From assembly GCA_000146465.1 (NCBI GenBank), contig CP001950.1: a stretch of 64,000 nucleotides of DNA; one strand, given 5' to 3'. This document shows, in pieces, positions 670-64,000 of the stretch. Within the stretch, counting starts at the first letter, position 1; every line of letters starts with the position of its first letter. Made by a program: the position numbers and the translations under genes. The notes below the pieces were generated by a model. It was not told the DNA's origin. It ran no database searches and saw only the letters and a program-made list of their open reading frames with translations.

Positions 670-698
670 AGGAAGTTTAATGGCCAGGTAATTATTCG

Positions 699-1733
699 AT
701 GTTTCCAGTACCCCATATCCTTATGAAGTTCAACTCTGCCGACTTTCCGATTATGAAGAGGATGTTGGTGGCTCGGGAGGAAGGGATATACTATGAGATG
801 GAGAAGAACAGCCTGGCCGATACATGGGATAGGTTGCTGGAGTATTACAGCGAAAAGATCCTAGAGGAGCACAAAGAAGAGATTGAAGAAGAGGAGCTTT
901 ACAGAATACTTTGCAAGGCAAGGGTGGAAGCGGAAACAGGGAGAAGGGTATATGAGCTAATTGATAAAGATGTGCTTGAGACACACAAAGTGAAACCACG
1001 GAGTGTAGACAGGTGTGAATTCAAGACATATATTCTGGACTCGTGCATCAGGATATTAAGAAAGGGGATTTCTGAACTTAAAGATGGGATTGAAAAGGAA
1101 TCAAGAGTCTGGTCAAAAGTGGAAGGAGCTAGCATGCCTGTAAGGCTAGTGAGAGGAAAGGTTCAAGTCTATGTAACAGAGACGGAATATCTAGTAGTGA
1201 ATGAGGAAGGAGACTATGTTTACCCAAGTGATTGGAATGCTCAAGGAGTGACATGCAAGATTAGATATATGGATGTTCATTTGGAATGTTCTGTGCTTCC
1301 AAGGAACAGCATGGATAAGATAGAAATGGTTAAGGAGTACTTTCTTGAAAGATCAATTATTCAGAAATTTATTCGAAATGACATTGAGATCGAGATAACT
1401 CCAATGGAAAATCCTTCGGAAAGGGAAGACATAATCTGCAAGTATGTAGTTTGCCATCTAAAGAGAGGAAAGAGCATCAAAGAGATATTTGAAAAAGTCA
1501 ATCTCTATCTTTCAAGAAAGCTTGTTGATATCATTGTCTCTGGAAGTAAGAAATGCACTGTCTTAAGGTACAGTGGCCATGTTCTTGAGGACGGATTACC
1601 CGAGGTATTTTTTGTACTTACGGATAACAAGGTCGTCAAAGCCATGAGACAACAGCCAGGGAAGTTTGAGATATTTGTAAATGAAGTTCCGATTAGATCC
1701 TTTCGAAATTATATCTCAAGAGAGGAGCCTTGA
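699..1733 (+). CDS. Hypothetical protein (344 aa), no recognised domain
   Basis: Long uninterrupted ORF with ATG start; coding-like composition; typical tight spacing to neighbours. Confidence 0.45.
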   Translation: MFPVPHILMKFNSADFPIMKRMLVAREEGIYYEMEKNSLADTWDRLLEYYSEKILEEHKEEIEEEELYRILCKARVEAETGRRVYELIDKDVLETHKVKPRSVDRCEFKTYILDSCIRILRKGISELKDGIEKESRVWSKVEGASMPVRLVRGKVQVYVTETEYLVVNEEGDYVYPSDWNAQGVTCKIRYMDVHLECSVLPRNSMDKIEMVKEYFLERSIIQKFIRNDIEIEITPMENPSEREDIICKYVVCHLKRGKSIKEIFEKVNLYLSRKLVDIIVSGSKKCTVLRYSGHVLEDGLPEVFFVLTDNKVVKAMRQQPGKFEIFVNEVPIRSFRNYISREEP

Positions 1734-1900
1734 AGCCTTTACTTCCTAAATCTATGGACCATGCAGGGCTTTGAATAAAGACTTTGGTGTTCAATCTTTT
1801 CTACTTTCTTTGCAAACATCCTGGCCTAATAATAAACCATTTCGGTTGGAACTCGCTTCTTAAGTTGGTGGTTATCTAACTTGAAGTTTACAGCCCAGAG

Positions 1901-2248
1901 ATGATAAGATGTGTCTATACAATGCAAAAGCATAAGAAGCTGAAAACATGGATGGACGGCTTTATAGAACAGAAAGGGAAAAGAATACATCTTTACAACA
2001 CCGACATGGTGAAGATAGACAGTTTGGTTGCTTCTTGTCTAGATAACGAGATGGAGACCCCAAAATACCTTTTGTACATCGAGTCTTTTGAGGATCCTGA
2101 GGAAAATGAGATAAAGCATCAGGAAAATCCTCCTTCTACCTCAAGAACATTGAAAGACAGACCAGAAAAAGACATAGAAGGTAATGTGAAATGTTCTTCA
2201 CCACAAGGAAGGTCTGAAGAGGAGATAATAAATTTGTTTCAAGGGTAA
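1901..2248 (+). CDS. DUF2439-like small protein (ZGRF1 N-terminal / Mte1 / Dbl2-type motif)
   Basis: N-terminus VYTMQKHKKLKTWMDGFIE matches the YT.QK.KK.K.W.DG motif of the DUF2439 domain, from memory of ZGRF1/Mte1; ATG start. Confidence 0.4.
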   Translation: MIRCVYTMQKHKKLKTWMDGFIEQKGKRIHLYNTDMVKIDSLVASCLDNEMETPKYLLYIESFEDPEENEIKHQENPPSTSRTLKDRPEKDIEGNVKCSSPQGRSEEEIINLFQG

Positions 2249-2261
2249 CATGGCTTTATTA

Positions 2262-3011
2262 TTACCTAAGAGTCTTTTCAATACTGCTTTCAAATGAAGA
2301 CACAACCTTTCCATCTATTCCATTCAGTTTTAGATTGTTTCTCTTTTCAAGAACGTGTTCCCTCTGTGCATTGATGTTGGATATGACGTTATCCATCACT
2401 TCCTTGAAGACTCCTATCCTTAGCTTCTTCAATTCGCTTACCACAACAGCAGCAAGCTCTGGAAACCCAATACTCTTTGAAAACACAGACATGTGCTGCA
2501 GAAGAAGAGATCCTGCCTCCTCTATAACAAACATCTGATGCTCTTCGCTTTTTGTCCTACTGGGGTCCGGATTAACCATGTCGTAGCTTATTTTTCTTCC
2601 CTCAACTGAAAGATTCTTTACGGATATGGCATTCTTCAATATTCTGATTATATAGAAGGATAAAGGGACATAAAACTTCGACCCAGCTACAGACTTAATA
2701 GCTCGAAGGCAGAATATCGAATACCGATAATCTTTATATGTTTCTATTATTCCTACCAGAAGCTTTATGTAATCTCTGAAATCAGAGTGCTTTTTTAGAC
2801 ACTTACTTAAAACCTCTATCATAAATGTGATCTTTGAAAGATCTGGGTTTTTGGTTCTGGCATATTTCTCTAAGTAAAATATTTCCGCATCGACATCCTT
2901 CGGATTCAATACATAATTTTGAATGTCCTCGGGAAGTGTTAATGCCTGGGATGTGTATATCTTTGAAAGATAGCTTTCCTCCAATTCCACACCATTGTCC
3001 GTTTGTGTCAT
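2262..3011 (-). CDS. NOC2: Nucleolar complex protein 2 (Noc2)-like, reduced
   Basis: Motif GFPELAAVVVSELKKLRIGVFKEV resembles the conserved Noc2/NOC2L FPELVLPVVVQLKSFLRECKV segment; 249 aa ORF. Confidence 0.45.
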   Translation of the reverse strand: MTQTDNGVELEESYLSKIYTSQALTLPEDIQNYVLNPKDVDAEIFYLEKYARTKNPDLSKITFMIEVLSKCLKKHSDFRDYIKLLVGIIETYKDYRYSIFCLRAIKSVAGSKFYVPLSFYIIRILKNAISVKNLSVEGRKISYDMVNPDPSRTKSEEHQMFVIEEAGSLLLQHMSVFSKSIGFPELAAVVVSELKKLRIGVFKEVMDNVISNINAQREHVLEKRNNLKLNGIDGKVVSSFESSIEKTLR

Positions 3012-3165
3012 TTTGGGGATTAGAAAATACCAAATATACTCTTAAAATTCCAGAAATGCTTACGTGTTTTGTAAAATCTCAAGGAAGAGCTGATCTTCTC
3101 AAATGTCCACATCTGTCCCCAGAAGGTCCTTTGAAGTAACTTTAGAACTCTTATATTGTTATTTG

Positions 3166-3513
3166 TCTTTAAGCTGTACTTAATCATCCAACACCCTGAA
3201 TTTGGAACTTCGGAAATATTCCCCCAACCGGTGCCAAATAGAGCAAGAGGTCTTTCTACAAGGAGAGGTGGCAGTCCAGTGGAGGATCTCCTCGAAAACT
3301 ACTTCTGGTTGAGTAGATTCGAGAGTAGCCACTGTTGGTTTGATCCCATCAGACAAAGGGACAGGGTAGATCCTATTTCGTGTGGGCCCTTTGGATGGAA
3401 GGGCCTGGAGAGCAGCGGAGGGCATGTGTTCTCCGGCAATAGAGAGCCCTGGTGAATTCATCGAGTTCCTGAAGCCCCTGATGATCGAAAGTCCTGCAAT
3501 AAAAAAGTTTATT
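3166..3513. repeat. Segmental duplicate (~97% identity, no indels) of 58707-59054; this is the intergenic/promoter region plus the first ~50 codons of the WAC/DDT-like gene
   Basis: Base-by-base alignment with constant offset 55541; about 10 mismatches in 348 nt. Confidence 0.9.
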
Positions 3514-4262
3514 AGATGCATTTGAGACTATGCAGGAAAAGGTAAGTAACTTTGATGACCACATGTGCGATCTGGAAAAGAAGATTAAAGACATCGAAAC
3601 AGCTTTCCAACCCATCCTTCTTTCCAAGGAATCCCACAAAAGATCGTTGCCTGAAGATAGTTTTCTTAAGAACATATATCTTGTGTTGATAATTGTGTTA
3701 TGCATACAGGGTGTTCTCTGGTACACAGACAATGAAAAGTCTTCTGCTGGAACTGTGTGGAACATGGTAGTGTACTCTGTGGCAGTTGTGGGGACGATTC
3801 TGTACATGGCCTGGGTGTGGGGATTTGGCGGAAGGAGATGGACTAGTGTTGCGAGCATGGTACCTATGATGGTTGGATTTCTGAATTTGGGGAAGAGGGT
3901 GAGCTGTGAGTACGGGATGGAGATGGCAGGGCTTGGGTTTATGATGGTTTGTATGGAGAGTCTTGCAAGACACGGGATGTCATCATGGGAGATTTTGGCA
4001 GGATTGATTGGAAATGGAATTGTAGTGATGGGATGGGTCAGTTGGGCTACAATGAGGGATAGATATGGAGAGAGGATGGGCCAGTGGATGTGTGGGGGAC
4101 TTATTGTGTTTGGAATTCTCATGGCTGTGATGATGTATATGAAGGAAGGGAGAAATGTGGAAAGGAGCACTGGAAGTTATATGGTGTTTATTATGACAGT
4201 GGTTGTTGGAACAGCTGTGTCTTATGCATGTGGAGAGGATTACAGACAACTTGCAACTAAGA
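3514..4262. repeat. Segmental duplicate (~98% identity, no indels) of 54803-55551; this is the 3' half (7-TM domain) of the family gene at 54072-55571
   Basis: Alignment with constant offset 51289; about 15 mismatches in 749 nt; homology stops ~50 nt before the stop codons. Confidence 0.9.
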
Positions 4263-4315
4263 GGTTGTTCCAAAGACCTCGGATTGTGGAAAGTAAATGC
4301 CAGAATCCAATTTAA
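3530..4315 (+). pseudogene. Truncated chimeric copy of the coiled-coil/7-TM family gene (TM domain only), fused downstream of the captured Itc1-like promoter/N-terminus; probably a pseudogene or neo-gene
   Basis: The 261 aa ORF begins at an ATG that is internal (FETMQGK) in the full paralogue; no CCC/GGG start context; the captured upstream ATG (~3424) terminates after 33 codons just past the junction. Confidence 0.45.
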
Positions 4316-51141: not shown

Positions 51142-51948
51142 ATGTCTCTGGTTTTTCTTTATGCTTTGAGTGTTGCAGCAAAGAACTATGCCATCTTAAT
51201 GAATTCGTCACGGGGATTCCACAACTACAGACATATGGCAAATGTATATATTTTCTACAATGTCCTAAAAGAGAACGGGTTCAAGGACGACCAAATCCTG
51301 ATCATCTCGTACGAGAATCAAATCGAAGACATCCGAAATGTAGACCGGGGTGGAGTTTACATCGATGAGGATCAGAGGATTCCCTACTCTGCATTCACAC
51401 CAAGCAGCAATGCTCTTGCAGATCTTCTTAATGCGCTTGAGGGAAGGAATATCAAGCTGAAGGATGCAGATGAGTCCTCTAATGTCTTTATATATCTCAA
51501 TGGGCATGGAAACGAGACATTCCTGAAGTTTGGAAACATTCACTTTATGACTAAAGATGACTTGATGGCAAGGATATTGAAGTTGGCTGAAAGAGTCAAC
51601 AAGATTCTGCTTGTGCTCGACACGTGCCAGGCCGAAGCTTTAATTGATAGAGAGATTCTGCCTAGTAATGTATTTATAGTGGCCACGAGCAAGACGGGGC
51701 AGCCGGCCATTTCCTCATTTAGCTCATCACTTATATGTGCAAATGTTTCCGATAACTTCCCGTACTTTTTCTTCAAGAGATTTGGAAAGGGGATTGACAG
51801 GAAGATCAGACTTCCCGATCTATTTTCCGAAATTGCCAAAGAGCCTCTTGGATCGGAGCTTGTGTTTGACGAGGAAAAAGACTTCAGGTTTGAGGACTTC
51901 TTTGTGCAAAACAACAGTGCAGAGCTTCTTCCCTTCAAGGAAAGATGA
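51142..51948 (+). CDS. GPI8: GPI-anchor transamidase catalytic subunit Gpi8 (C13 legumain-like peptidase)
   Basis: Signal peptide; NYAILMNSSRGFHNYRHMANV (SRFWFNYRH motif); catalytic-dyad context LNGHG...VLDTCQA. Confidence 0.8.
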   Translation: MSLVFLYALSVAAKNYAILMNSSRGFHNYRHMANVYIFYNVLKENGFKDDQILIISYENQIEDIRNVDRGGVYIDEDQRIPYSAFTPSSNALADLLNALEGRNIKLKDADESSNVFIYLNGHGNETFLKFGNIHFMTKDDLMARILKLAERVNKILLVLDTCQAEALIDREILPSNVFIVATSKTGQPAISSFSSSLICANVSDNFPYFFFKRFGKGIDRKIRLPDLFSEIAKEPLGSELVFDEEKDFRFEDFFVQNNSAELLPFKER

Positions 51949-53450: not shown

Positions 53451-53909
53451 TTATATGTCGTCTTGGAAGTCTTCTTTACTTCTTCTTCGCTCCAGGAATA
53501 TCTCTTTTCCTGTTTTCCCTGTCCTCGGCTTTTCTGCTCTGGGAGTTCCCTTCTTCCAGTTCATAAAGTCCTCCTCGGTTATCTTCTGCTTATCGTCTAT
53601 GTTGTAGCTGATTGATATTCTCTTTACATCACTCACTATGTTGCTTCCTTCCAGCTTCCTGACAACTATTCTAACCATATCGAAGATCATAGGTGTCGAG
53701 ATGTACTTCTTTGTCTCCTCTCTTACTTCTGCTAATATGTTGTCTTCCACATCCGATGACATCTCTGGAATGGTGTTGGGGTAGCCTTCTGAGCATCGGA
53801 ACTCAAAGGAGTTCCCCTCAGCAGATATCTTGTAGACATGCTCTGTGTCCCTTGTGTAGTGTTCCAAATCGCCTCCAAAAATATATCTCAAAGCATCGCA
53901 CTCATCCAT
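53451..53909 (-). CDS. RWD-domain / DFRP-domain protein (Gir2/RWDD1-like, DRG2 partner)
   Basis: RWD-like start MDECDALRYIFGGD...FEFRCSEGYPNTIPE and C-terminal DFRP-like FMNWKK...GKTGKEIFLE; the upstream 270 nt of the track ORF are likely untranslated. Confidence 0.5.
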   Translation of the reverse strand: MDECDALRYIFGGDLEHYTRDTEHVYKISAEGNSFEFRCSEGYPNTIPEMSSDVEDNILAEVREETKKYISTPMIFDMVRIVVRKLEGSNIVSDVKRISISYNIDDKQKITEEDFMNWKKGTPRAEKPRTGKTGKEIFLERRRSKEDFQDDI

Positions 53910-54071
53910 GGGGTATTCCCATCGAGCCTTCTTCTCCAGACACTGATATTTAGTCTGTCTGTCTTTTCTATCTAATAAAGTGTTTTTATTAAACTCTATA
54001 GCTGTTCTCGCCAAGCATATTCTATTTATAGAAACCAATTCTTTATATAATCTAAGCCGTTGTTTGTACAG

Positions 54072-55571
54072 ATGGAAAACACAAGATGGATAAAAGCTGA
54101 AATTAAAAATGTAAACGATGGCTCTGTAGCCAGAGAAGTCTTGGCCAACGAGACAAATTCCTTTGTCAGAGAACTCAATCACTATGAAAAAAATCTTAAG
54201 GATATTCTTGAAGAACTAGAGAATCAAAACATAACTAACAAGGAAGAAGGAATTTCGTCCGTTAAGAAAGCCTTGGAGGTGTTAGAAACTCTTGAAAAAG
54301 ATGTCAGCTCAGCAGTTCCTGAAGAGACATCTATTTGGACGAAAGACTTTTTCAAAGCTGTTGATAGACTAAGAGATAGTTGTAATCTATCACTCAAGTC
54401 ACTTGAGGAGGCTCTTGAAAAATTTCTGGCCTATATTGATAATAACTCGGATCTAAAGGGAGATCTTTTGCAGAAGGCCAAGCTCATTCCCCTTCTGTGT
54501 GCATCTAGCAAGCTTAAAGAATTTTCTTCGGGTATAAGGAAGTCGGGGACCAATGCCTTTACGTGGTTTTTTAAGTTTGTTAGAAGGATTCCCGTCGAGA
54601 ATTTCAAGAAGAACATTAACTCGAGCTTAAATGGCCTAAAGGAAAAGATTTGCCGTGTATCTGGATCCCAAAGAGCAACAGGGAAGCAAGAAATCCGGGA
54701 GGCACAGAAGATTGTGGATTCTTTTTTACGCGATGTAACCGAACTTCAGGATGAATATGAGAAAACTCTTGGCCTTCTTATAAGATCGGAGATATCCTTT
54801 TCAGATGCATTTGAGACTATGCAGGGAAAGATAAGTAACTTTGATGGCCACATGAGTGATCTGGAAAAGAAGATTAAAGACATCGAAACAGCTTTCCAAC
54901 CCATCCTTCTTTCCAAGGAATCCCACGAAAGATCGTTGCCTGAAGATAGTTTTCTTAAGAACATATATCTTGTGTTGATAATTGTGTTATGCATACAGGG
55001 TGTTCTCTGGTACACAGACAATGAAAAGTCTTCTGCTGGAACTGTGTGGAACATGGTAGTGTACTCTGTGGCAGTTGTGGGGACGATTCTGTACATGGCC
55101 TGGGTGTGGGGATTTGGCGGAAGGAGATGGACTAGTGCTGCGAGCATGGTACCTATGATGGTTGGGCTTCTGAATTTGGGGAAGAGGGTGAGCTGTGAGT
55201 ACGGGATGGAGATGGCAGGGCTTGGGTTTGTAATGGTTTGTATGGAGAGTCTTGCAAGACACGGGATGTCATCATGGGAGATTTTGGCAGGATTGATCGG
55301 AAATGGAATTGTAGTGATGGGATGGGTCAGTTGGGCTACAATGAGGGATAGATATGGAGAGAGGATGAGCCAGTGGATGTGTGGGGGACTTATTGTGTTT
55401 GGAATTCTCATGGCTGTGATGATGTATATGAAGGAAGGGAGAAATGTGGAAAGGAGCACTGGAAGTTATATGGTGTTTATTATGACAGTGGTTGTTGGAA
55501 CAGCTGTGTCTTATGCATGTGGAAAGGATTACAGACAACTTGCATCTAAGAGAATGTCTCTGAAATCTTGA
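54072..55571 (+). CDS. Lineage-specific coiled-coil + 7-TM membrane protein (full-length member of the duplicated family)
   Basis: ~250 aa heptad-rich N-domain then 7 predicted TM helices; paralogous to 63410-> (N-domain) and 3530-4315 (TM domain, 98% nt identity). Confidence 0.6.
   Translation: MENTRWIKAEIKNVNDGSVAREVLANETNSFVRELNHYEKNLKDILEELENQNITNKEEGISSVKKALEVLETLEKDVSSAVPEETSIWTKDFFKAVDRLRDSCNLSLKSLEEALEKFLAYIDNNSDLKGDLLQKAKLIPLLCASSKLKEFSSGIRKSGTNAFTWFFKFVRRIPVENFKKNINSSLNGLKEKICRVSGSQRATGKQEIREAQKIVDSFLRDVTELQDEYEKTLGLLIRSEISFSDAFETMQGKISNFDGHMSDLEKKIKDIETAFQPILLSKESHERSLPEDSFLKNIYLVLIIVLCIQGVLWYTDNEKSSAGTVWNMVVYSVAVVGTILYMAWVWGFGGRRWTSAASMVPMMVGLLNLGKRVSCEYGMEMAGLGFVMVCMESLARHGMSSWEILAGLIGNGIVVMGWVSWATMRDRYGERMSQWMCGGLIVFGILMAVMMYMKEGRNVERSTGSYMVFIMTVVVGTAVSYACGKDYRQLASKRMSLKS
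54803..55551. repeat. Source/partner copy of the 3514-4262 duplication
   Basis: 98% identity, colinear. Confidence 0.9.
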
Positions 55572-55834
55572 ATGCAAGATGTCAAATCTTTAAAGTAATC
55601 AAAAACACAAAACAGAAAACCTCTAAAAGCTAGCTATCCTTTTTTTCTTGGATGTTTAGTAGTCTAGGTGTATTGGGCAATTGCATCAAGGATGAACCAA
55701 ACGGACACCAACTTCCAATCACTTCATGGAATACTATATTTCCAAAAAAGGCACATTCCTCAGTGAACCTGTTAAGTTTTTTTCTAATCATCTTTTTAAC
55801 CCGTTGTATAAACCAGGGACTCTAGGAAACCCTT

Positions 55835-56620
55835 ATGATTAGCATTTTATTCCTTGGCCATGCAGAAGCCGCAACGGGTATCCCTTCAGATCTCTGGGAT
55901 TCAGTAAACTACTATAGCCTCCTTTTGCCAAAGAGGCCTGAAGTGGCCTTGATCTTGTTTGTTGCGGGCCTCTTTGTGAATTTTCTGGGGATTCGTGCAA
56001 AAAGATGCTCTCTGTCTATGATCTCGTTCCCTTTACTTCGTCTGAGCATTGGAAGCATAATGAATGTGCTAAAGGAAATAGTTATAGATAAATATGGAAG
56101 CATATCCGAGGCTCCCCAGATGGTTAGGAATGGGCTTGAGATACTAAAGAAGGTGGACGAGAACAGATTCTTCATGATCTTTCTGTCTGTTGTTCTTGGG
56201 CTTGTGATGGTTTTCTTTGCCAAGGCTGTAATATACATCTTGATGGTATATCTTGCATTCCATCTGTGGGGAATACTGGAATCATCTGCCCAGGGGACAA
56301 TGGAAGGGAAACTGTATTACATTTACCAAACAATAATGTTATGCATTGGGATCTTGGTTCTGGTTCTTGTAAAGCCAATCACCTTCTTAATCTACATCCT
56401 CATCTTCTCTGTGTTTGGATCTCTCTTCATCATAGTCGGAGCCAATTTTGGATCTGGATTGAACCTCCATCTAAATCAATACATCGATATGCTTCGAAAA
56501 GGAGACTTCTATCAAGATCTGGTTGAGAATAAGATCTCTGTAGGATATATCTCCCTCGTGACGATGGGGACTATTTGCCAGATACTTCTTAGGAAGAAGC
56601 CCACGGCGAAGGCAAACTAA
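55835..56620 (+). CDS. Membrane protein with two long hydrophobic hairpins (reticulon-homology-like; tentative)
   Basis: Two ~35-45 aa hydrophobic segments separated by a hydrophilic loop; no motif-level confirmation. Confidence 0.35.
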   Translation: MISILFLGHAEAATGIPSDLWDSVNYYSLLLPKRPEVALILFVAGLFVNFLGIRAKRCSLSMISFPLLRLSIGSIMNVLKEIVIDKYGSISEAPQMVRNGLEILKKVDENRFFMIFLSVVLGLVMVFFAKAVIYILMVYLAFHLWGILESSAQGTMEGKLYYIYQTIMLCIGILVLVLVKPITFLIYILIFSVFGSLFIIVGANFGSGLNLHLNQYIDMLRKGDFYQDLVENKISVGYISLVTMGTICQILLRKKPTAKAN

Positions 56621-56682
56621 ATGCCTCTGGGAAAGGAATTCATTTCTATATTAAAAGTTTTGGTATAATTTAATTGCCTTCC

Positions 56683-57795
56683 TCAGCACGGTGGATAAAA
56701 GCATCCAAAAAGAATTGCATATGCTATTCCAAATCCAAAGTAGAACCTGAACAGAACTTTTTTCCAGAGTCCGTTATTCATTGTGTAGTATTTTTCTGCC
56801 AGAATCCAATATATTAGAGGATTGAACGAGACAAATCTAAAGTACATGTTCCAATGAATCAAGAATACTGTGATAAGAGTTTGAGCCAGAAGGACAACCG
56901 CACACATGTCTGTGTTGAAGTGCTGAAGGATGCCAATGGCCTTGGAACTCCCTGCACATCTTTTGTTCCAGTACTCTCTGAGAATAAACAAAGAAATCAG
57001 GATGAATGGAAGCCCAACCAATACATTGGGGATGTTCTTGTATGTGAAGAATCGGAATAGTCCTTGTTCCCACAGGGTCCTCTGTATGAAAGAATAAGGA
57101 ATGAAGATTTTGTAGGTATTGTTAGCTCTGTTGATCATAAGCAGGGTGTAGTATTGAAATGCAGCAAGTGGAAGTAGAAATACAGCGATTTTTGTGAATG
57201 TATATCTACTTAAAGGACACATGAGAAATGGAGCAAATAAAACCGCATTCGATCTGCACAGGCCGCACAAAGACAAAAACAACACTCCGCGAACAGTGTC
57301 TCTGTTTTCTATGAAATACATTCCCAAGAGAAAGAGAAGCATGAACAAGGATTCCGAATACATGGCTGTGTACACTATAGATGCCGGGTTGAAAATGAAG
57401 AGGATACAGCTCATCGCTGCTATTTTGTTTCCGTACCTTTTTTGGGTGATCCTGTAGAGCAATGCAGAACTAAAGACAAAGGCTGTACACGAGACAAGAA
57501 CTCCCACTGTGTATGGATCTAGTGGAAGAACCTTGTGGATACAGCGGGATAGATACGGAAGAAGGGGAAAGAATGCAGCCTCATGGGTTTTCCTGTATCC
57601 TCTCTCCATGATCTCTAGGAAGTGAATGGAGTCCCACGAAAGGAGAAATTTCATACATGAGTTGCTGGGAATAAGTTCTGTGGATTTGTCAAAGCGAGGA
57701 AGAAGGAGATATGCAACATATGAGATACCTATGTAGAAGGCACGAGAGGCTGCTGCCAACCTGATTACTCCTTGAATGTTCGTGGCGAATGGCAT
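56683..57795 (-). CDS. GPI18: GPI mannosyltransferase 2 (PIG-V / Gpi18)
   Basis: FLLSWDSIHFLEIMERGY....EAAFFPLLPYLSR matches the PIG-V F.WD..YF..IA..GY...AFFPL.P motif block; multi-TM. Confidence 0.7.
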   Translation of the reverse strand: MPFATNIQGVIRLAAASRAFYIGISYVAYLLLPRFDKSTELIPSNSCMKFLLSWDSIHFLEIMERGYRKTHEAAFFPLLPYLSRCIHKVLPLDPYTVGVLVSCTAFVFSSALLYRITQKRYGNKIAAMSCILFIFNPASIVYTAMYSESLFMLLFLLGMYFIENRDTVRGVLFLSLCGLCRSNAVLFAPFLMCPLSRYTFTKIAVFLLPLAAFQYYTLLMINRANNTYKIFIPYSFIQRTLWEQGLFRFFTYKNIPNVLVGLPFILISLFILREYWNKRCAGSSKAIGILQHFNTDMCAVVLLAQTLITVFLIHWNMYFRFVSFNPLIYWILAEKYYTMNNGLWKKVLFRFYFGFGIAYAILFGCFYPPC

Positions 57796-57861
57796 TCCAA
57801 TAGGGGAGCATCTTGGAATTTGTTTATCTCAACTTGTAAATTTTACAAGGTTACACACCCC

Positions 57862-58683
57862 ATGTTTGTTTTTCTTCTCCACCTGCTCGGATGTTTGTGC
57901 AGCGAACATGTCTTTATACAAGAGGCGTCGCTACTGTCGCCATATGTAGATGAGATTGGCAGGTTCCTCAACTGGAAGACATTTGGGGAGCAAGTAATAA
58001 AGGTCCATGGAAAGGATATGTTTGTACAGTTAGGATACTCGTCTCCAAATAGCTCTGGGGCTGTTGTGGCATCTCACCCCATAGGTTCTGAGAGGTTTGG
58101 GATGGATCTGATTATTGAGGTGGACTCTGGACAGAAAGGGGACACCAACGAGGGAATGGCCATATGGATATCTGATGAGGAAACGTTTAAGGAGGGGCCT
58201 TGTTTTGGGAGGTCATGTAGTTTCAAAGGCCTTTTGGTTGTCATAAAGCCCTCTGGAAAGTCTTATGTTGGGGTGAAGGCTGGTGATGTTATGATCAACA
58301 CCAGTAATATGGCCAAGAATTTTGACAAGGTTGAATACAGAGACTTTTCCTCTGGAGAGAAATTCGTTCTTAGAATTGAGCAAAAGGATTATGAGCTGTC
58401 TATATATATAGGAGAGGGGGAAGACTTCTCTCTTGTGCATTCTTACAGATACAATCTTGTAAAGGAAGGAGACCTTCTTGGGGTTTCTGCATCAACGGAC
58501 AGATCGTCGACTTCATTCAGGTTGATTGGAATTGAAAGTTACCATCTAAAGAACATGGAGGGCAAGGGATATGCAAAGGAAGATGTACACAGCGGTGGAA
58601 GACTTATTTGGTTTATCCTTGCAGTTGTAGTTTCAATAACCGCATACTACCTCTACAACATCCAAGTAAAAAAGGATAATTAA
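57862..58683 (+). CDS. L-type (legume-like) lectin cargo receptor (ERGIC-53/Emp46-like), type I membrane protein
   Basis: Signal peptide (MFVFLLHLLGCLC), lectin core (GMAIWISDEE...FKGLLVVIKP) and a C-terminal TM + short tail; CCCC upstream of ATG. Confidence 0.6.
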   Translation: MFVFLLHLLGCLCSEHVFIQEASLLSPYVDEIGRFLNWKTFGEQVIKVHGKDMFVQLGYSSPNSSGAVVASHPIGSERFGMDLIIEVDSGQKGDTNEGMAIWISDEETFKEGPCFGRSCSFKGLLVVIKPSGKSYVGVKAGDVMINTSNMAKNFDKVEYRDFSSGEKFVLRIEQKDYELSIYIGEGEDFSLVHSYRYNLVKEGDLLGVSASTDRSSTSFRLIGIESYHLKNMEGKGYAKEDVHSGGRLIWFILAVVVSITAYYLYNIQVKKDN

Positions 58684-58706
58684 CTTCTAGTCCTTCTATT
58701 CTATAG

Positions 58707-59054
58707 TCTTTAAGCTGTACTTAATCATCCAACACCCCGAATTTGGAACTTCGGAAATATTCTCCCAACCGGTGCCAAATAGAACAAGAGGTCTTTCTAC
58801 AAGGAGAGGTGGCAGTCCAGTGGAGGATCTCCTCGAAAACTACTTCTAGTTGGGTAGATTCGAGAGTAGCCATTGTTGGCTTGATCCCACCAGACAAAGG
58901 GGCAGGGTAGATCCTATTTCGTGTGGGCCCTTTGGATGGAAGGGCCTGGAGAGCAGCGGAGGGCATGTGTTCTCCGGCAATAGAGGGCCCTGGTGAATTC
59001 ATCGAGTTCCTGAAGCCCCTGATGATTGAAAGTCCTGCAATAAAAAAGTTTATT
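58707..59054. repeat. Source/partner copy of the 3166-3513 duplication (promoter + 5' end of the Itc1-like gene)
   Basis: 97% identity, colinear. Confidence 0.9.
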
Positions 59055-60545
59055 GTTAATTACTTTATTGAACACAGCCAAGAGAACATTGATGATATAG
59101 CAGCCAGGATCGACGGATGTCTTCGGAAGAGGTTTGTGGAGAACGAGGTGGTGTCTGTTGTAAGGTCTGGGGAGTGGGGAAGGATTTCTCGAGTGGCTGG
59201 AGACAGGTATGTTGTAAGCATCCTGTCTCTAGATGGAGGGCGAGAGGAAAGGCTCCACTTTTCGGAGCTTGCAAGGAAGGACATGGCGGGGCGGACGGAG
59301 GTCAAGGGATATCTGCTTGGGATAACAATGGAAACTCCTTTTGGACGGGTGCTGAAGGAGAATGCATTCCGAAGCATAAGAGACTCTGGGGAAGTGATGA
59401 AATGCAAGGTTCCACAGAGCCAGTGCTATGAAGGGAGTTTTGTGTCTCGGAGGGGTGTTGGGGGGACGGAGAGAAGGAAATGGAAGACGGAGAAGGAAGG
59501 GCAAGGCTCGAGAGAGAAGAACGAGGAAAGGGAGACAGAGGGCAGTAGGGCGAAGCGGGCCTCCGTGCGAAAGGAGGGGACGAAGGAGACGAGTGTGAGT
59601 TCGATCCTCTTGGTGGGGCCTTCGCAGGCTCTGGAGATCCCGGGGCTTAGGAAGGAAGATATCGAGCTAGTGATGAAGATCTTTGGAGTGGTAGCAAACT
59701 TCGGGGGGTTTTTTGGGATCCAAGAGATTGATGTTTTGTCGCTAGGGAGGGCTATTGTTGATCCTTGGTATGAGGATGATACGATATGCAAGATCCATTT
59801 GAAGCTGATCTCTGGACTTCGGACAGAAATGGATTCTGTGGGGATGGAGGAGTTTGTGGAGAACAGCAAGGCATGCATTGAATGGGCCAAGGAGCAAGGA
59901 AGGGAGGAGGATTTGGCTGGAGATGGGGGGGAGATGGAGGAGTGTCTTGAACAGTCTCTGGGCTGTGGGGAAGAGGGCTGGAAGAAAGACCTAAGGAAGC
60001 TTATTGAGAGTATTTGCGATGATGGGGACACAGACATTTTTGGTATTGTGAGGAGCATCTCTGGAAGGAGCAGGGCTCTTGGGAGGGGAGAGATAAGAAA
60101 GAGGCTTGTTGTGATTGAGCTGCTGATGAACATGTTCTTTACAACAGAACAGTTCCGAGAGATTATATGGGAGAAGATGGAGGAGTCGAAGGATCTTGAG
60201 AAGAAGAAGAGGGAGCTCCAGACAAGGCTTAAGAGGAGTGTGGGATGGGATGGAGAGAGCAAGGAGGCAGGAGAAGGCTCTCGAGCCGAGATGGAGAAGG
60301 AGCTTGGGGACACAAGAGAGAAGATATTCCAGCTTCCTGTGAATACTGGGGTTGGAACTGTGGATGGGGTTGGGCTTCTTCATCTTGGGAGGAAGATCTA
60401 TGCAGCCTGGGAAGGAGACTACTATTTGGTGGGGAGAGACAGGCTGGCAGATCTATGTAAGAAATATAAGGCAAAGAACAAAGAGGAGAGACATGTGCTG
60501 GAAAGCATAGGACAGAACATAGAAGGGTTGAAAGGCCATCTTTGA
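58965..60545 (+). CDS. WAC/DDT-domain protein (Itc1/ACF1-like ISWI accessory subunit; tentative)
   Basis: N-terminus resembles a WAC domain (..DDIAARIDGCLRKRFVENEVVSV..RISRV..YVVSI..) and DIELVMKIFGVVANFGGFFGI....LGRAIVDPW a DDT/WHIM-like helix block; GGG before the ATG at 58965 (track start 58923 is GTG). Confidence 0.45.
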   Translation: MCSPAIEGPGEFIEFLKPLMIESPAIKKFIVNYFIEHSQENIDDIAARIDGCLRKRFVENEVVSVVRSGEWGRISRVAGDRYVVSILSLDGGREERLHFSELARKDMAGRTEVKGYLLGITMETPFGRVLKENAFRSIRDSGEVMKCKVPQSQCYEGSFVSRRGVGGTERRKWKTEKEGQGSREKNEERETEGSRAKRASVRKEGTKETSVSSILLVGPSQALEIPGLRKEDIELVMKIFGVVANFGGFFGIQEIDVLSLGRAIVDPWYEDDTICKIHLKLISGLRTEMDSVGMEEFVENSKACIEWAKEQGREEDLAGDGGEMEECLEQSLGCGEEGWKKDLRKLIESICDDGDTDIFGIVRSISGRSRALGRGEIRKRLVVIELLMNMFFTTEQFREIIWEKMEESKDLEKKKRELQTRLKRSVGWDGESKEAGEGSRAEMEKELGDTREKIFQLPVNTGVGTVDGVGLLHLGRKIYAAWEGDYYLVGRDRLADLCKKYKAKNKEERHVLESIGQNIEGLKGHL

Positions 60546-60567
60546 CTGTCTGTTTGTTTATGATGTA

Positions 60568-62010
60568 TTGGAAGGGGTTTTATCTGTGAGTAAACAACCA
60601 ATACAAATGGAAAGGCAGAGATTTACAAACCTGCTGAAGGATGGAGAGAGAGGGATTCCTCCGGAGTACAGCATGAGCTTGGGGAAACACTCTGTGACTG
60701 TGCGGAACCTAAAGAAAAAGTATCTTATAAACAAGATTACATTGCTAGACATCTACAACTACTACAGAACCCCGTTATCGGTATACACATCACAGAAGAT
60801 CAGGAACATGTTCGTAACGGCATCTCTGTGTCTTACTGTGTATCTGGCATCGAACATAGATTCAATCAGAAGCAACAAGATTCCGAGGCTTGGAGTAAAC
60901 TTCTCGTCTGCAGCCCTGGTTATTGGCGGGGTGTTTGTTGGCAGGGAGGCGATTTCGTATGCGATCAACTTCAGGAAGATGGTGTCTATATTCTACATGT
61001 ACAGATACATTCTGGAGAGAGACATGGAGGAGATCCGGTTCAAGGATGTTGTGTCGGGGATGATCAAGCTGGAAAGAGAGGTGCACAACAGAGACCTGGA
61101 GGAGAAGGATGTGCGGGACATTGTGAACCATAACAGGCTACTCCTTCTGTTGATGATGAGGAAGTTTCCTTCGATATTCCGGCCGGCATGTTCCAGGTTC
61201 CTGCTGCACATCCTCCATGGCTACATCCACAGAATAGAAGAGGGCCCTGTGGAAGAGCTGGGAGACGAGATCCGGGTGGTTTCGATTGGAATCTTCATAT
61301 TGTCCCCGGCGATTTCGATCTTCTTTATTCTGTACTACATTGCAAAGATCATAGAAAAGTCCCAGAGCAATATGTTCTATGTGTTCAAGAAGTCCCACAG
61401 GCCGTGGTTCAAGTACATGATGGCCAAAAGAAACGAGTATCCACACGAAACACACAGGAAGATACAGAAGGGAGCTGGATATCTAAACGGATTTTTTCTT
61501 TCAAGAAAGAGAGACTGCATCCCAAGGGTCTGCTCTGGGATCTCGTTTCTTCTGAGCTGTCTTGTGTTTCTGGTTGGATATCTTATTCTGAGCATCTTGG
61601 TTGCATCCAAGCCAAACCTGAGCCAGAGCCTTTCCCAGGATATAACTGTCTTTGGGAGGACAACAAACATAGTGTATCTCTCGTACCTCATGGGGGGAAT
61701 ATCCTGCTGCCTGAGATGTCTCAGCATCGAGTATGGGGTTTCGAACCGTCGAAAGATGTTTGCCAAGTGGTGTGTGCTGATGGAGCAGACGGAGGTGCTG
61801 AAGTACTGTGGAAGGCGGGGATCCCTTGAGGCGATTATGTCGAAGATCTTTGTTCCGCGTATATATTTATTTCTTGTAGAGATAGTGTCTCCATTTATTG
61901 TTCCTTTCCAGTTGGAAGGAATGAGAAGGAGGTTGGAGAGGATCCGGCAGGAGTTTGAATCTGTGGGGGAGGGGGAGTACGACAGGCGGGTCTCGATCCT
62001 TGATCTATGA
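60568..62010 (+). CDS. Multi-pass membrane protein of unknown function (faint, unverified similarity to the Atg9 core)
   Basis: 480 aa; ≥6 hydrophobic segments; DLEEKDVRDIVNHNRLLLLLMMRKF loosely recalls the Atg9 TELDIYHRILRFKNYMVA segment. Confidence 0.45.
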   Translation: MEGVLSVSKQPIQMERQRFTNLLKDGERGIPPEYSMSLGKHSVTVRNLKKKYLINKITLLDIYNYYRTPLSVYTSQKIRNMFVTASLCLTVYLASNIDSIRSNKIPRLGVNFSSAALVIGGVFVGREAISYAINFRKMVSIFYMYRYILERDMEEIRFKDVVSGMIKLEREVHNRDLEEKDVRDIVNHNRLLLLLMMRKFPSIFRPACSRFLLHILHGYIHRIEEGPVEELGDEIRVVSIGIFILSPAISIFFILYYIAKIIEKSQSNMFYVFKKSHRPWFKYMMAKRNEYPHETHRKIQKGAGYLNGFFLSRKRDCIPRVCSGISFLLSCLVFLVGYLILSILVASKPNLSQSLSQDITVFGRTTNIVYLSYLMGGISCCLRCLSIEYGVSNRRKMFAKWCVLMEQTEVLKYCGRRGSLEAIMSKIFVPRIYLFLVEIVSPFIVPFQLEGMRRRLERIRQEFESVGEGEYDRRVSILDL

Positions 62011-62037
62011 CGGGAGGAAACACGGCATGGATCATAT

Positions 62038-63102
62038 TCACAGATTGATTTCTTTGTGGGGTTCCAGAACACCCAGGTCTCGGAGCTTGTCGCTCACCAC
62101 AGATGCCTTGACAACATACTTACTTCCAAATCTTCTTACAAGCTCTCCGAGATCTTTACAGCGAAGAAGCTCTTTTTCAAGTTCCCCCAAAAGCTCTTCG
62201 GGAAATACTTCGCGCTCTACTAGTGGAAGAGAAATCCAGGAGGAGCAGAATGACGGAAATATAGTAAACTTACAGGAAGGAAATCCAAGACATGGCTTCC
62301 GACATGTTCTAGATGGCTCCATCCTTTCCGAATCCAACTCTATCCATTCACAACTACTTTCTTCCTCCGAAGATTCCTCTTCTGTGCTTTCAATAACTTC
62401 TGCATCCTCGCAATCTTCCCAATCAGAATCTTCCTCGTAGTCTAAAACTTGTGGAAGCCTTGTAAGGCTGTTTTTCACATAATGTTTCTGTCCTCCAAAT
62501 CCATAGAGAGGTGGCCTAAGCTGGTTGGAAAATTTGATGAAGGATAATCTTCTTGGATCTTGAATGTCTTTTCTTATGCGTATTGTGGAACTGAGAGGAC
62601 TCGAAGGCATGCTGACTGCTGTCTCCTTGTCGAAGCATATTGGGGAAAATAGTCCAAGCATATCCGCCGAAGGCTTCTTTATGCCTTCTACCTGAATAAA
62701 TCTCAGCATACCAGAAGTGTTTGCTTCTTCTTTTTCTGTATCTCTCTCCAAGCCAGAAATCCCTTTATCTTTAGCTTTTTTCTTTCTCGCTCTCTTCAAT
62801 AGGCTTCGAACACCTTTAGAGATTCCATCAAGGCTCTTAAGAAAGTATATATTTCCCTCTCCACTTACTTCCACATCGAAATTGGACTCAACAGCCTTCT
62901 TCAGACTATTTACTCTGTCTTTTCTCCTCTTCGACGTTTTTTTATACGAATATAGGATTTTGTCCATCCAATAGTAGTCCACCTTCTGCTTCCCTTCTAC
63001 TAGGAGAGCTATAAGATCTAGAGGAACCTCTTCTTCTCGTCCTCTCTTCCACTCATGCAGAATCTTTAGCACTTCCGGATGGAATAAAACATCCGTAATC
63101 AT
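62038..63102 (-). CDS. Acidic (D/E/S-rich) protein of unknown function
   Basis: Start at the MITDVLFHPEV ATG (track start is non-ATG); long acidic tract EEDSDWEDCEDAEVIESTEEESSEEESS. Confidence 0.4.
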   Translation of the reverse strand: MITDVLFHPEVLKILHEWKRGREEEVPLDLIALLVEGKQKVDYYWMDKILYSYKKTSKRRKDRVNSLKKAVESNFDVEVSGEGNIYFLKSLDGISKGVRSLLKRARKKKAKDKGISGLERDTEKEEANTSGMLRFIQVEGIKKPSADMLGLFSPICFDKETAVSMPSSPLSSTIRIRKDIQDPRRLSFIKFSNQLRPPLYGFGGQKHYVKNSLTRLPQVLDYEEDSDWEDCEDAEVIESTEEESSEEESSCEWIELDSERMEPSRTCRKPCLGFPSCKFTIFPSFCSSWISLPLVEREVFPEELLGELEKELLRCKDLGELVRRFGSKYVVKASVVSDKLRDLGVLEPHKEINL

Positions 63103-63409
63103 AAAAAGGATAAGAATAAAACAATATAAAGATATTGGGAAGATACAATGGCAATATGTTCTTTCTACCAAATACTTCCCATCATACCCACAGTTTCATG
63201 GGGATTATATGAAGGATACCCTGGCTCTTCCCCTTCTTTAGACAAGAATAAGCATCCAACTAAAAGCCCCTCTTCAAGTTCCGGCCCCTTTAAAGCCAAA
63301 CCGCCAAGGATGTTTTTACTAAACAGTTGTCCACTATTCTTATGATTCCCCTTCTAATTGGCCAATTATAGTGAGGACTCCCACATACGCTCCAATAGCA
63401 GTGCCCTTA

Positions 63410-64000
63410 ATGAATCATATCAACCGTATCCGAGATATACTCATCAACCTTGATTCACAAAGCTCTCTTCATGAAGAAACAGTTGCAGAATGTGCATTGG
63501 TATATTATTATAATGCTGTAAGTAAGTTTCTGAATGGAATCCTCTTCTATGAGGAGAAGTTAAATGAAGTCTTGGAGTCTTTGAACAACAAGCTCAATTC
63601 ACAGAGTGAAAAGGGAATTAACGCGGTCAAAGAAACTCTGGACACACTTCGTAGGCTTAAGGAGACAATACAACCTAAAATCGAATGTCCTTTTAACCAA
63701 CTTTCTCATCCTCCAGAACTAACAAATATTGAAATCCTCGAGTACAACTTCAAAACTTTTGAAGAGTACTTCAAAGCAATCGATAGAATGGTTTCTTCGG
63801 AAGGACAGATTCCATTTGAAGAGTTCAAGGATGCACTCAGGAATGTCTTGCCATATGTCGATTATCCACTGACCCACAGTACAGGATCCCATTCTATTGT
63901 TCTCAAAAACGTATTTCTTCAACTCTTGGGGGAGTATAATGTCTCTGCTGTATTTGAAAATACCTGTCTCAATAAGTATTATGAAAACTTAAGAATAATA
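63410..64000 (+). CDS. Second member of the coiled-coil/7-TM family, 5' part; the ORF runs off the 3' edge of the window (absent from the ORF track because it has no stop in the window)
   Basis: ATG at 63410 with CCC context. YEEKLNEVLESLNNKLNSQSEKGINAVKETLDTLRRLKETI aligns with B1's YEKNLKDILEELENQNITNKEEGISSVKKALEVLETLEKDV. Open frame to nt 64000. Confidence 0.55.
   Translation, partial: MNHINRIRDILINLDSQSSLHEETVAECALVYYYNAVSKFLNGILFYEEKLNEVLESLNNKLNSQSEKGINAVKETLDTLRRLKETIQPKIECPFNQLSHPPELTNIEILEYNFKTFEEYFKAIDRMVSSEGQIPFEEFKDALRNVLPYVDYPLTHSTGSHSIVLKNVFLQLLGEYNVSAVFENTCLNKYYENLRII

What the first reader, a model, noticed from the sequence alone, without database searches (positions are those of the whole stretch)
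54072..64000. Lineage-specific gene family: coiled-coil N-domain + 7-TM C-domain, ≥3 copies clustered with secretory-pathway genes
The 503-aa protein at 54072-55571 has a ~250-aa heptad-rich N-terminal domain followed by seven predicted TM helices. It has no resemblance I can recognise to any characterised family. A second, ~40% identical N-domain starts at 63410 and runs off the window. A third, truncated copy sits at 3530-4315. The two downstream members flank a block containing PIG-V (GPI mannosyltransferase), an L-type lectin cargo receptor, a WAC/DDT-like protein and two further uncharacterised multi-TM proteins; GPI8 lies just upstream (51142). Microsporidian subtelomeric multigene families (InterB, DUF-type membrane families) behave similarly. 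This family may be an undescribed surface/secretory membrane family undergoing active duplication.
Basis: partly seen in the sequence, partly recalled or inferred. Interest (0 to 1): 0.7.

Follow-up and report, generated by a model that had tools for sequence, protein, structure and literature searches.

The report
Known InterC membrane family, split gene
The "new" gene family is the already described InterC (Pfam DUF1686) membrane-protein family of the microsporidian Encephalitozoon, and two of the three reported copies are the two halves of one gene, most likely separated by an error in the 2010 short-read genome assembly.

Summary
The window is the core of Encephalitozoon intestinalis ATCC 50506 chromosome IX, from the 2010 assembly. 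The ORF at 54072-55571 is real. It encodes 499 aa from the ATG and is Eint_091090.

It has a heptad-rich, all-helical N-domain of about 290 aa and a 7-helix membrane domain. The membrane domain matches Pfam DUF1686 (81 bits against a cut-off of 25). DUF1686 is the published "InterC" multigene family, so the family is not undescribed. Its function is still unknown.

"Copy 2" (63410 onward, Eint_091160 "partial") and "copy 3" (3530-4315, Eint_090540) are residues 1-276 and 290-550 of a single 550-aa gene. That gene is intact in the 2023 telomere-to-telomere assembly of the same strain and its two junctions are intact in two other assemblies. The window therefore holds two InterC genes, not three or more.

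The junction at 3513/3514 lies within one short-read length of the nearest sites that distinguish the paralogous repeats. This points to a repeat-induced misassembly.

The two real paralogues are about 20-25% identical over their first 210 residues and 96-98% identical over the last 821 bp. E. cuniculi paralogues show the same mosaic, which indicates gene conversion.

The neighbouring secretory genes reflect synteny and rearrangement, not a conserved functional cluster. Novelty is low.

The parts
54072..55571 (+). Complete InterC/DUF1686 gene, 499 aa (Eint_091090, ADM12238.1). It differs by one residue from UTX46047.1 of the T2T assembly.
   Evidence: ORF. Pfam PF07937 81.3 bits, E=1.1e-22, aa 323-486. 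Exact product found as Eint_091090. S262C against T2T.
54072..54941 (+). N-terminal soluble domain (aa 1-290): nine amphipathic helices, heptad-rich, no signal peptide. Poorly conserved between paralogues.
   Evidence: AF2 helices H2-14 to H243-286. Heptad score 0.47 against 0.28+/-0.03 in shuffles, 0 of 300 reach it. 20-25% identity to the paralogue over aa 1-210.
54942..55571 (+). Seven-helix membrane domain (DUF1686) plus a short basic tail.
   Evidence: AF2 of the domain alone: pLDDT 82, pTM 0.80. Hydropathy. Near-invariant Y331, G337, P361, M362, M399 across the family.
54732..55552 (+). 821-bp 3' tract that is 98% identical to the 3' part of the second InterC gene, with a sharp left boundary. 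Interpreted as a gene-conversion or partial-duplication tract (D2).
   Evidence: BLASTN. Identity profile jumps from about 20% to 96-100% at aa ~221. 13 nt differences in T2T, pN/pS 0.86.
63410..64000 (+). 5' part (aa 1-197) of the second InterC gene, 550 aa in T2T. Annotated as Eint_091160 'partial', 276 aa, in the 2010 assembly.
   Evidence: Translation. 100% identical to T2T locus 1. P0066 equals aa 1-276 of P0065.
3514..4315 (+). 3' part of that same second InterC gene. The ORF from the internal ATG at 3530 is Eint_090540, 261 aa, equal to aa 290-550 of the 550-aa protein. This is not an independent truncated paralogue.
   Evidence: 591 + 260 + 802 nt = 1653 nt, and the in-frame reconstruction gives the T2T 550-aa protein apart from 3 aa. 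Exact product = Eint_090540.
3165..3513 (+). 349-bp copy (97%) of 58706-59054: the upstream region plus the first 11 codons of the DUF5097 gene. In T2T it continues into a full DUF5097-ATG9-CAF1A block. Here it abuts the InterC 3' part at 3513/3514.
3486..3537 (.). Chimeric junction 3513|3514. It lies 27 nt after the last site that distinguishes A1 from A2 and 23 nt before the first site that distinguishes D1 from D2. The fusion is out of frame and has no counterpart in any other assembly fetched.
   Evidence: SNP map, junction sequences. (T2T and two other assemblies carry 5,206 bp here).
58706..62121 (+). 3.4-kb segment holding DUF5097, ATG9 and the last 84 bp of the CAF1A-like gene. T2T has two copies that differ at 9 sites in the first 349 bp and 5 sites in the remaining 3,067 bp. 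The window has one hybrid copy, with locus-2 alleles up to 59054 and locus-1 alleles after.
55835..58683 (.). Conserved three-gene block: a 261-aa multi-pass protein (+), PIG-V mannosyltransferase (56683-57795, -) and an L-type lectin (57862-58683, +). The same block is flanked by InterC genes in E. cuniculi.
   Evidence: Pfam. E. cuniculi locus L005.
62038..63102 (-). CAF1A-dimerisation-domain protein, 354 aa. In T2T it lies only at locus 1, between ATG9 and the 550-aa InterC gene.
   Evidence: Pfam. Loci L002-L004.
51142..51948 (+). GPI8-like Peptidase_C13. A neighbour only.
   Evidence: Pfam E=6e-20. No such gene within 10 kb of the E. cuniculi locus.

Best explanation
The region holds two members of the known Encephalitozoon InterC (Pfam DUF1686) multigene family, in the core of E. 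intestinalis chromosome IX.

Protein architecture. Each protein has no signal peptide. It has a fast-diverging, heptad-rich helical N-domain of about 290 aa, followed by a conserved 7-helix membrane domain. I infer that the first membrane helix acts as a signal-anchor for ER insertion, that the N-domain stays in the parasite cytosol, and that the conserved helix bundle is the functional core. What that core does is not known.

Gene evolution. The two genes lie about 50 kb apart. They share an 821-bp 3' tract at 98% identity, while their 5' halves are unalignable at the DNA level. Linked paralogues in E. cuniculi show the same mosaic. This indicates repeated ectopic gene conversion of the membrane-domain part while the N-domains diverge.

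The apparent third copy. The ORF at 3530-4315 is the 3' end of the second gene, whose 5' end is at 63410. In the 2010 assembly two near-identical repeats caused a 5.2-kb piece to be placed at the wrong locus. The repeats are the InterC 3' tract and a 3.4-kb DUF5097-ATG9 duplication. The misplaced piece carries DUF5097, ATG9, the CAF1A-like gene and the InterC 5' part. This left an artificial junction at 3513/3514.

Shown here: family membership, architecture, the split of one gene, and the mosaic identity. Inferred: topology, gene conversion as the cause of the mosaic, and misassembly rather than a real rearrangement.
For: Family:
- PF07937 scores 81 bits against a cut-off of 25. 21 of 22 homologues match it.
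- NCBI names the T2T protein, which differs at one residue, "DUF1686 domain-containing protein".
- DUF1686 = InterC, with 5-8 C-terminal TM helices, no signal peptide, an N-terminus predicted cytosolic, and 8 of 19 genes on the chromosome IX core (PMC4704409).

Architecture.

Split gene:
- T2T locus 1 equals window 1-3513 + window 59055-64000 (100% identical) + 260 bp + window 3514 onward.
- The reconstruction is in frame and gives 550 aa.
- Eint_091160 'partial' is aa 1-276 and Eint_090540 is aa 290-550 of UTX45990.1.
- Two further assemblies carry the same two junctions as T2T.

Misassembly:
- Both assemblies come from strain ATCC 50506.
- The 2010 data were 31-bp reads assembled with Velvet at k=19, giving 137 scaffolds that were then joined by PCR.
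- The junction lies 27 nt and 23 nt from the nearest paralogue-distinguishing sites.
- In the repeats, 8 of the 13 differences between the window and T2T are allele swaps at paralogue-distinguishing sites in the 349-bp A and 750-bp D repeats. The other 5, in the DUF5097-ATG9 block, arise because the window carries the locus-1 copy at locus 2.
- The 2010 proteome has a single ATG9.

Gene conversion. In one search, four E. cuniculi chromosome IX genes share 3' tracts of 560-850 bp at 99% identity while their 5' parts diverge.
Against: - I could not read the 2010 record beyond base 64000, nor any raw reads. A genuine rearrangement in the 2010 culture stock is therefore not excluded.
- The 2010 authors state that scaffold breaks were validated by PCR.
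- Topology is unresolved. Counts of positive charges in the loops do not favour either orientation (my count on the sequence printed).
- Two of the seven helices are only weakly hydrophobic.
- pN/pS in the shared tract is 0.7-0.9, based on only 13-16 substitutions. This does not show constraint.
- No experimental localisation or expression data were found for any InterC protein.
Confidence: 0.85

Rival explanations
1. The window shows a real structural variant of the sequenced isolate. A 5.2-kb piece moved from the Noc2 locus to the lectin locus. This left a genuinely truncated InterC gene at 3530-4315 and a 3'-truncated one at 63410.
For: The junction is clean and sits in a finished, "gap-free" assembly whose breaks were reportedly checked by PCR. 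InterC genes are associated with recombination sites in E. cuniculi. The cassettes they flank do move between species.
Against: Both assemblies are from the same ATCC strain. Three other assemblies agree with each other against the window. It would need two precise breakpoints that partition one gene with at most 23 nt lost, both inside stretches identical between repeats. The segment lands exactly where the second repeat copy lies. Allele swaps at paralogous sites are typical of short-read mis-phasing.
Confidence: 0.1
2. One reading: a previously undescribed surface or secretory membrane family, undergoing active duplication, in a functional cluster with GPI-anchor and cargo-receptor genes.
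For: The family is lineage-restricted and multi-copy. It has no fold match in the PDB. PIG-V, the lectin and the 261-aa membrane protein sit beside InterC genes in both E. intestinalis and E. cuniculi.
Against: The family has had a Pfam entry (DUF1686, cited in a 2010 paper) and was named InterC in 2016. The "duplicated fragment" is half of an existing gene. GPI8 is not a neighbour in E. cuniculi. ATG9, DUF5097 and CAF1A lie on another chromosome there. Encephalitozoon chromosome cores are broadly collinear, so shared neighbours are expected without any functional link (PMC4704409). The published table, as I read its column order, lists only 2 subtelomeric DUF1686 ORFs for E. intestinalis.
Confidence: 0.04
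3. The near-identical 3' tract reflects a recent partial duplication that created a chimeric gene once, rather than ongoing gene conversion.
For: There is a single sharp boundary at 54732, and the tract ends 19 nt before the stop codon.
Against: The same 5'-divergent, 3'-identical mosaic occurs independently among four E. cuniculi genes, with tract boundaries that differ between gene pairs. Membrane-domain identity between species is only about 30%, against 96-99% within a species. This is the signature of concerted evolution.
Confidence: 0.2

Closest known systems
InterC multigene family / Pfam PF07937 (DUF1686) of Encephalitozoon (Dia et al. 2016, PMC4704409; Mascarenhas dos Santos et al. 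2023, PMC10158259)
   Same: It is a member. The Pfam match is well above threshold. It has no signal peptide, a long N-terminal soluble region and 5-8 C-terminal TM helices. It is restricted to the genus, lies in the chromosome IX core, and shows truncated forms and links to recombination.
   Different: In E. intestinalis the two chromosome IX genes studied here lie about 50 kb apart in direct orientation. They are not an adjacent inverted pair as described for the E. cuniculi core loci. The papers I read do not mention the 3'-tract homogenisation.
InterD (DUF2463), InterB and InterAE (DUF3654/DUF1609) subtelomeric families of Encephalitozoon
   Same: Genus-restricted multigene families with unknown function. 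InterD is also a ~7-TM protein. All are associated with recombination sites.
   Different: There is no Pfam match to DUF2463, DUF1609 or DUF3654. InterD lacks the long N-domain. InterB and InterAE are described as having a signal peptide and a single TM helix in 2016, and as globular in 2023. Those families are confined to subtelomeres, whereas InterC also occurs in chromosome cores.
Variant multigene families of protozoan parasites (var, vesa, vsg), the analogy drawn by Dia et al.
   Same: Multi-copy and lineage-specific. A variable domain is joined to a conserved part, ectopic recombination occurs among copies, and some copies are chromosome-internal.
   Different: There is no evidence of surface exposure, of switching, or of mutually exclusive expression. 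The variable N-domain is predicted to face the cytosol, which fits poorly with antigenic variation.
[not shown]
   Different: Rmsd is about 6 A and identity 6-9%. Scores fall in the same range as ROP, talin rods and designed bundles. There is no sequence similarity. The helix count and the predicted side of the bundle differ. I treat this as generic helix packing, not homology.

Membership tests
InterC / Pfam DUF1686 (PF07937) | Match to the PF07937 profile above the gathering score | tested here: met
   81.3 bits against a cut-off of 25, E=1.1e-22, covering profile positions 3-182 of 182. 21 of 22 homologues also match.
InterC / Pfam DUF1686 (PF07937) | Architecture: no signal peptide, long N-terminal soluble region, 5-8 C-terminal TM helices carrying the DUF1686 domain (PMC4704409) | tested here: met
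   The N-terminus is hydrophilic. Five strong and two weaker hydrophobic segments lie in aa 292-485. AF2 predicts seven helices.
InterC / Pfam DUF1686 (PF07937) | Restriction to the genus Encephalitozoon | tested here: met
   HMMER against 1.84 billion representatives gave 22 hits. 19 of the 20 family clusters looked up carry E. cuniculi, E. hellem, E. romaleae or E. intestinalis names. One family cluster from run assemblies is unnamed, one more is unnamed and was left out, and the hit P0021 is probably spurious.
InterC / Pfam DUF1686 (PF07937) | Core-chromosome loci on chromosome IX, X or XI, organised as pairs in inverted orientation (described for E. cuniculi) | tested here: inconclusive
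   Chromosome IX core location is met: T2T positions about 88 kb and 139 kb of 268,753 bp. The two genes are both on the + strand and about 50 kb apart, so the inverted-pair feature is not seen in E. intestinalis. It is seen in E. cuniculi chromosome XI.
InterC / Pfam DUF1686 (PF07937) | N-terminus cytosolic (a prediction in PMC4704409) | not testable with these tools
   My count of positive charges in the loops is about 9 on one side and 11 on the other, which is not decisive. Protease-protection or tagging experiments are needed.
InterD (DUF2463), InterB/InterAE (DUF3654, DUF1609) | Match to the corresponding Pfam profiles | tested here: not met
   None of these appears among the Pfam hits down to E=0.1.
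Canonical dimeric or trimeric coiled-coil protein | Long uninterrupted heptad register that forms an intermolecular coiled coil | tested here: inconclusive
   Heptad periodicity is significant. PDB profile hits are all coiled-coil or bundle proteins. AF2 breaks the region into nine helices of 5-44 residues, which suggests an intramolecular bundle. Oligomerisation was not modelled.
Known 7-TM folds (GPCR, microbial rhodopsin, other solved multi-pass families) | Significant structural match of the membrane domain | tested here: not met
   [not shown]
TM7S3/TMEM198 (weak hit of the neighbouring 261-aa protein) | Profile similarity between the DUF1686 domain and the neighbouring 7-TM protein | tested here: not met
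   hhalign probability 0.9%, E=0.06.

The most novel reading that the evidence does not exclude
InterC genes may be more than passive family members. They may act as recombination substrates that duplicate and relocate the housekeeping cassettes they flank. The cassettes are 261aa-PIG-V-lectin and DUF5097-ATG9-CAF1A. The second sits on chromosome XI between an inverted InterC pair in E. cuniculi. In E. intestinalis it sits on chromosome IX next to an InterC gene, with an extra 3.4-kb copy. Meanwhile the membrane domain is kept uniform within a species by gene conversion and the N-domain is left free to diversify. That would make InterC loci the main hotspots of structural change in otherwise collinear Encephalitozoon chromosome cores.
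Probability: 0.3. Interest if true: 0.45.

Novelty: already known. Interest (0 to 1): 0.2.

Why it matters
As a discovery it matters little. The family, its architecture and its chromosome IX core loci are published, and its function is as unknown after this work as before.

The result has practical value.
- Two entries of the 2010 reference proteome, Eint_090540 and Eint_091160, should be read as one 550-aa gene.
- The 2010 chromosome IX lacks one copy of the DUF5097-ATG9 duplication.
- Paralogue counts or "truncated copy" and "pseudogene" calls made on that assembly are unreliable at repeats.

The concerted evolution of the membrane domain, together with the movement of InterC-flanked cassettes between species, gives a concrete and testable handle on how these very compact genomes rearrange.

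Tried and rejected
The exhaustive HMMER scan replaced them.
It was rebuilt without that row.
- The afdb50 fold library was unavailable, so I made no comparison with predicted structures of other organisms.
- A PDB sequence-profile search gave only coiled-coil compositional hits such as noelin, SMC and apolipoproteins.
- NCBIfam gave only sub-threshold hits.
- hhalign of the DUF1686 domain against the neighbouring 261-aa 7-TM protein was negative.
- A literature search for six E. cuniculi InterC locus tags found nothing.
- I could not fetch the 2010 record itself, so what follows base 64000 in the source is unknown.
- No tRNA genes lie in the window, and self-BLAST found no repeats other than the two described.
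- I considered a real deletion at 3513/3514 and a functional secretory-gene cluster. Both are kept as low-probability rivals.
Full report
**Source of the window.** The window is a gene-dense eukaryotic sequence of about 43% GC.
- The exact 499-aa product of 54072-55568 is on record as Eint_091090 (ADM12238.1).
- The exact 261-aa product of 3530-4312 is on record as Eint_090540 (ADM12183.1).
- Both belong to Encephalitozoon intestinalis ATCC 50506 and lie on a 233,397-bp contig. This is chromosome IX of the 2010 assembly. Accessions CP001942-CP001952 are listed in PMC4355639.
- The window aligns at 99.9% or better to the 2023 telomere-to-telomere (T2T) assembly of the same strain. The record is CP075166.1, 268,753 bp, positions about 80-147 kb, which is the chromosome core.

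**The observation.** The ORF at 54072-55571 is real.
- AlphaFold2 with a 22-sequence family alignment gives an all-helical model (pLDDT 78, pTM 0.49). It has nine helices in residues 2-286 and seven in residues 292-498.
- The C-terminal domain modelled alone is confident (pLDDT 82, pTM 0.80).
- Hydropathy gives five strongly and two weakly hydrophobic segments.
- The N-domain shows significant heptad periodicity. Its mean score is 0.47 against 0.28+/-0.03 in shuffles, and 0 of 300 shuffles reach it.
- "Coiled-coil-like N-domain plus seven membrane helices" therefore stands. AlphaFold2 suggests an intramolecular bundle rather than one long coiled coil.
- The N-terminal fragment at 63410 is related, but at 27% identity over 117 residues, not about 40%.
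- The ORF at 3530-4315 is 95% identical to the C-terminal half of the 499-aa protein.

**What the family is.**
- Pfam DUF1686 (PF07937) matches residues 323-486 at 81 bits against a cut-off of 25. 21 of 22 homologues match it too.
- NCBI names the T2T protein, which differs at one residue (S262C), "DUF1686 domain-containing protein".
- DUF1686 is the InterC family of Dia et al. 2016 (PMC4704409).
  - That paper reports 19 genes in E. cuniculi. Eight lie on the chromosome IX core, and two each on X and XI.
  - It describes 5-8 C-terminal TM helices, no signal peptide, a predicted cytosolic N-terminus and an unknown function.
- The family was already cited in the 2010 E. intestinalis genome paper. 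Predicted folds were shown in the 2023 T2T paper.
- An exhaustive HMMER scan of 1.84 billion representative proteins found 22 hits. 19 of the 20 family clusters looked up carry Encephalitozoon names. One further looked-up hit is probably spurious.

**How many copies.**
- Self-BLAST shows that 3165-3513 copies 58706-59054 at 97%. The adjacent 3514-4263 copies 54803-55552 at 98%. This is a chimeric junction of two unrelated segments.
- In T2T, the locus after the Noc2 gene reads as window 1-3513, then window 59055-64000 (100% identical), then 260 bp that fall beyond the window, then window 3514 onward.
- Joining 63410-64000, those 260 bp and 3514-4315 gives 1653 nt in frame. It encodes the T2T 550-aa protein UTX45990.1 apart from three residues.
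- In the 2010 annotation the N-terminal piece is Eint_091160, flagged "partial", 276 aa, equal to residues 1-276. Eint_090540 equals residues 290-550.
- Two further E. intestinalis assemblies carry the same two junctions as T2T.
- "Copy 2" and "copy 3" are thus one gene, and the window holds two InterC genes.

**Why I read this as a misassembly.**
- Both assemblies come from ATCC 50506.
- The 2010 genome was built from 31-bp paired reads with Velvet at k=19, giving 137 scaffolds. These were then linked by PCR.
- T2T has two copies of a 3.4-kb DUF5097-ATG9 segment (window 58706-62121). The copies differ at only 5 sites after the first 349 bp.
- The two InterC genes share an 821-bp tract whose first 94 nt are identical.
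- The junction 3513|3514 lies 27 nt after the last site that separates the two 349-bp copies. It lies 23 nt before the first site that separates the two InterC tracts. That is within one read length of where the repeats become indistinguishable.
- The window's single DUF5097-ATG9 copy carries locus-2 alleles up to 59054 and locus-1 alleles after.
- In the 349-bp and 750-bp repeats, all 8 differences between the window and T2T are allele swaps at paralogue-distinguishing sites.
- I could not inspect reads or the record beyond base 64000, so I keep a real rearrangement as a rival at 10%.

**The two real paralogues.**
- The two real paralogues are 20-25% identical over residues 1-210 and 96-100% identical from about residue 221 onward. 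The boundary is sharp, at nt 54732. No DNA similarity is detectable upstream of it.
- Four linked InterC genes on E. cuniculi chromosome IX show the same pattern. Their 3' tracts of 560-850 bp are 99% identical and their 5' parts diverge.
- Between species, membrane-domain identity is only about 30%.
- This is concerted evolution of the DUF1686 part, most simply by ectopic gene conversion. The N-domain escapes it.
- pN/pS in the shared tract is 0.7-0.9, from only 13-16 changes, and is uninformative.

**The neighbourhood.** Pfam confirms GPI8, PIG-V and the L-type lectin. It also identifies ATG9, a DUF5097 protein and a CAF1A-like protein.
- In E. cuniculi the block lectin-PIG-V-262aa sits among four InterC genes next to Noc2.
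- There, DUF5097-ATG9-CAF1A sits on chromosome XI between an inverted InterC pair.
- In E. intestinalis both blocks are on chromosome IX, in new positions, each next to an InterC gene.
- GPI8 is not a neighbour in E. cuniculi.
- The "secretory cluster" is therefore a product of synteny and rearrangement at InterC loci. It is not a conserved functional cluster.

**Function.**
- No solved structure matches convincingly. Foldseek found nothing at E<=1e-3.
- Near-invariant Tyr, Gly, Pro and Met residues inside the helices suggest that the membrane bundle is the functional core.
- My working model is inferred, not shown. The protein is inserted in the ER by its first helix. The N-domain faces the parasite cytosol as a variable interaction module.

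**Verdict.** This is a correct sighting of a real, lineage-specific membrane family. The family is already known, the copy count is inflated by an assembly artefact, and the functional clustering is unsupported.

Noticed in passing
window 58706-62121; L001 14635-18050 and L002 10982-14397: The T2T assembly has two copies of a 3.4-kb segment carrying the DUF5097 gene, ATG9 and the last 84 bp of the CAF1A-like gene. The copies differ at 9 + 5 sites. The 84-bp CAF1A stub at the lectin locus marks that copy as the derived one. The 2010 assembly, and so the window, has only one hybrid copy.
   Followed up: yes
window 60607-62010 (+): A clear ATG9 homologue (PF04109, E=2e-13; UniRef names it 'Autophagy-related protein 9'). 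It is conserved across Encephalitozoon and duplicated in E. intestinalis T2T. From memory, microsporidia are thought to have lost most of the autophagy machinery, so a retained and duplicated ATG9 lipid scramblase may deserve a look.
   Followed up: partly
L006 6253-14664 (E. cuniculi chromosome XI) against window 59022-64000: In E. cuniculi the DUF5097-ATG9-CAF1A cassette is flanked by an inverted pair of InterC genes on chromosome XI. In E. intestinalis it is on chromosome IX next to one InterC gene. By locus tag it is also on chromosome IX in E. romaleae.
   Followed up: partly
L005 6257-16329 (E. cuniculi chromosome IX): Four InterC genes share 99% identical 3' tracts of 560-850 bp, while their 5' parts are 66-72% identical or undetectable. 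The tract boundaries differ between gene pairs. One of the four is a 265-aa C-terminal-only ORF next to Noc2.
   Followed up: partly
window 45458, 45471, 45670 (ribosomal protein L3 gene, 44841-45992, - strand): Three of the four window-versus-T2T differences that lie outside the repeats fall within 213 bp of the RPL3 gene. One changes V108 to A. This could be another paralogue mis-phasing or a sequencing error in one assembly.
   Followed up: partly
window 3373-4170 (-), 54746-55459 (-), 3180-3521 (-), 58721-59002 (-): Long antisense ORFs run across the InterC membrane-domain coding region and across the 349-bp repeat. They are duplicated only because the underlying DNA is duplicated. They are probably not genes.
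   Followed up: no
window 55835-56620 (+): A 261-aa multi-pass membrane protein with only a sub-threshold TM7S3/TMEM198-like hit (E=0.002, 18 bits against a cut-off of 29). It is conserved next to PIG-V in E. cuniculi (262 aa) and has no Pfam annotation in either genome.
   Followed up: partly
window 53451-54182 (-): The mechanical ORF for the RWD-domain gene is 243 aa from a GTG start. It would overlap the start of the InterC gene. The T2T annotation uses a 152-aa product that ends well short of it.
   Followed up: no
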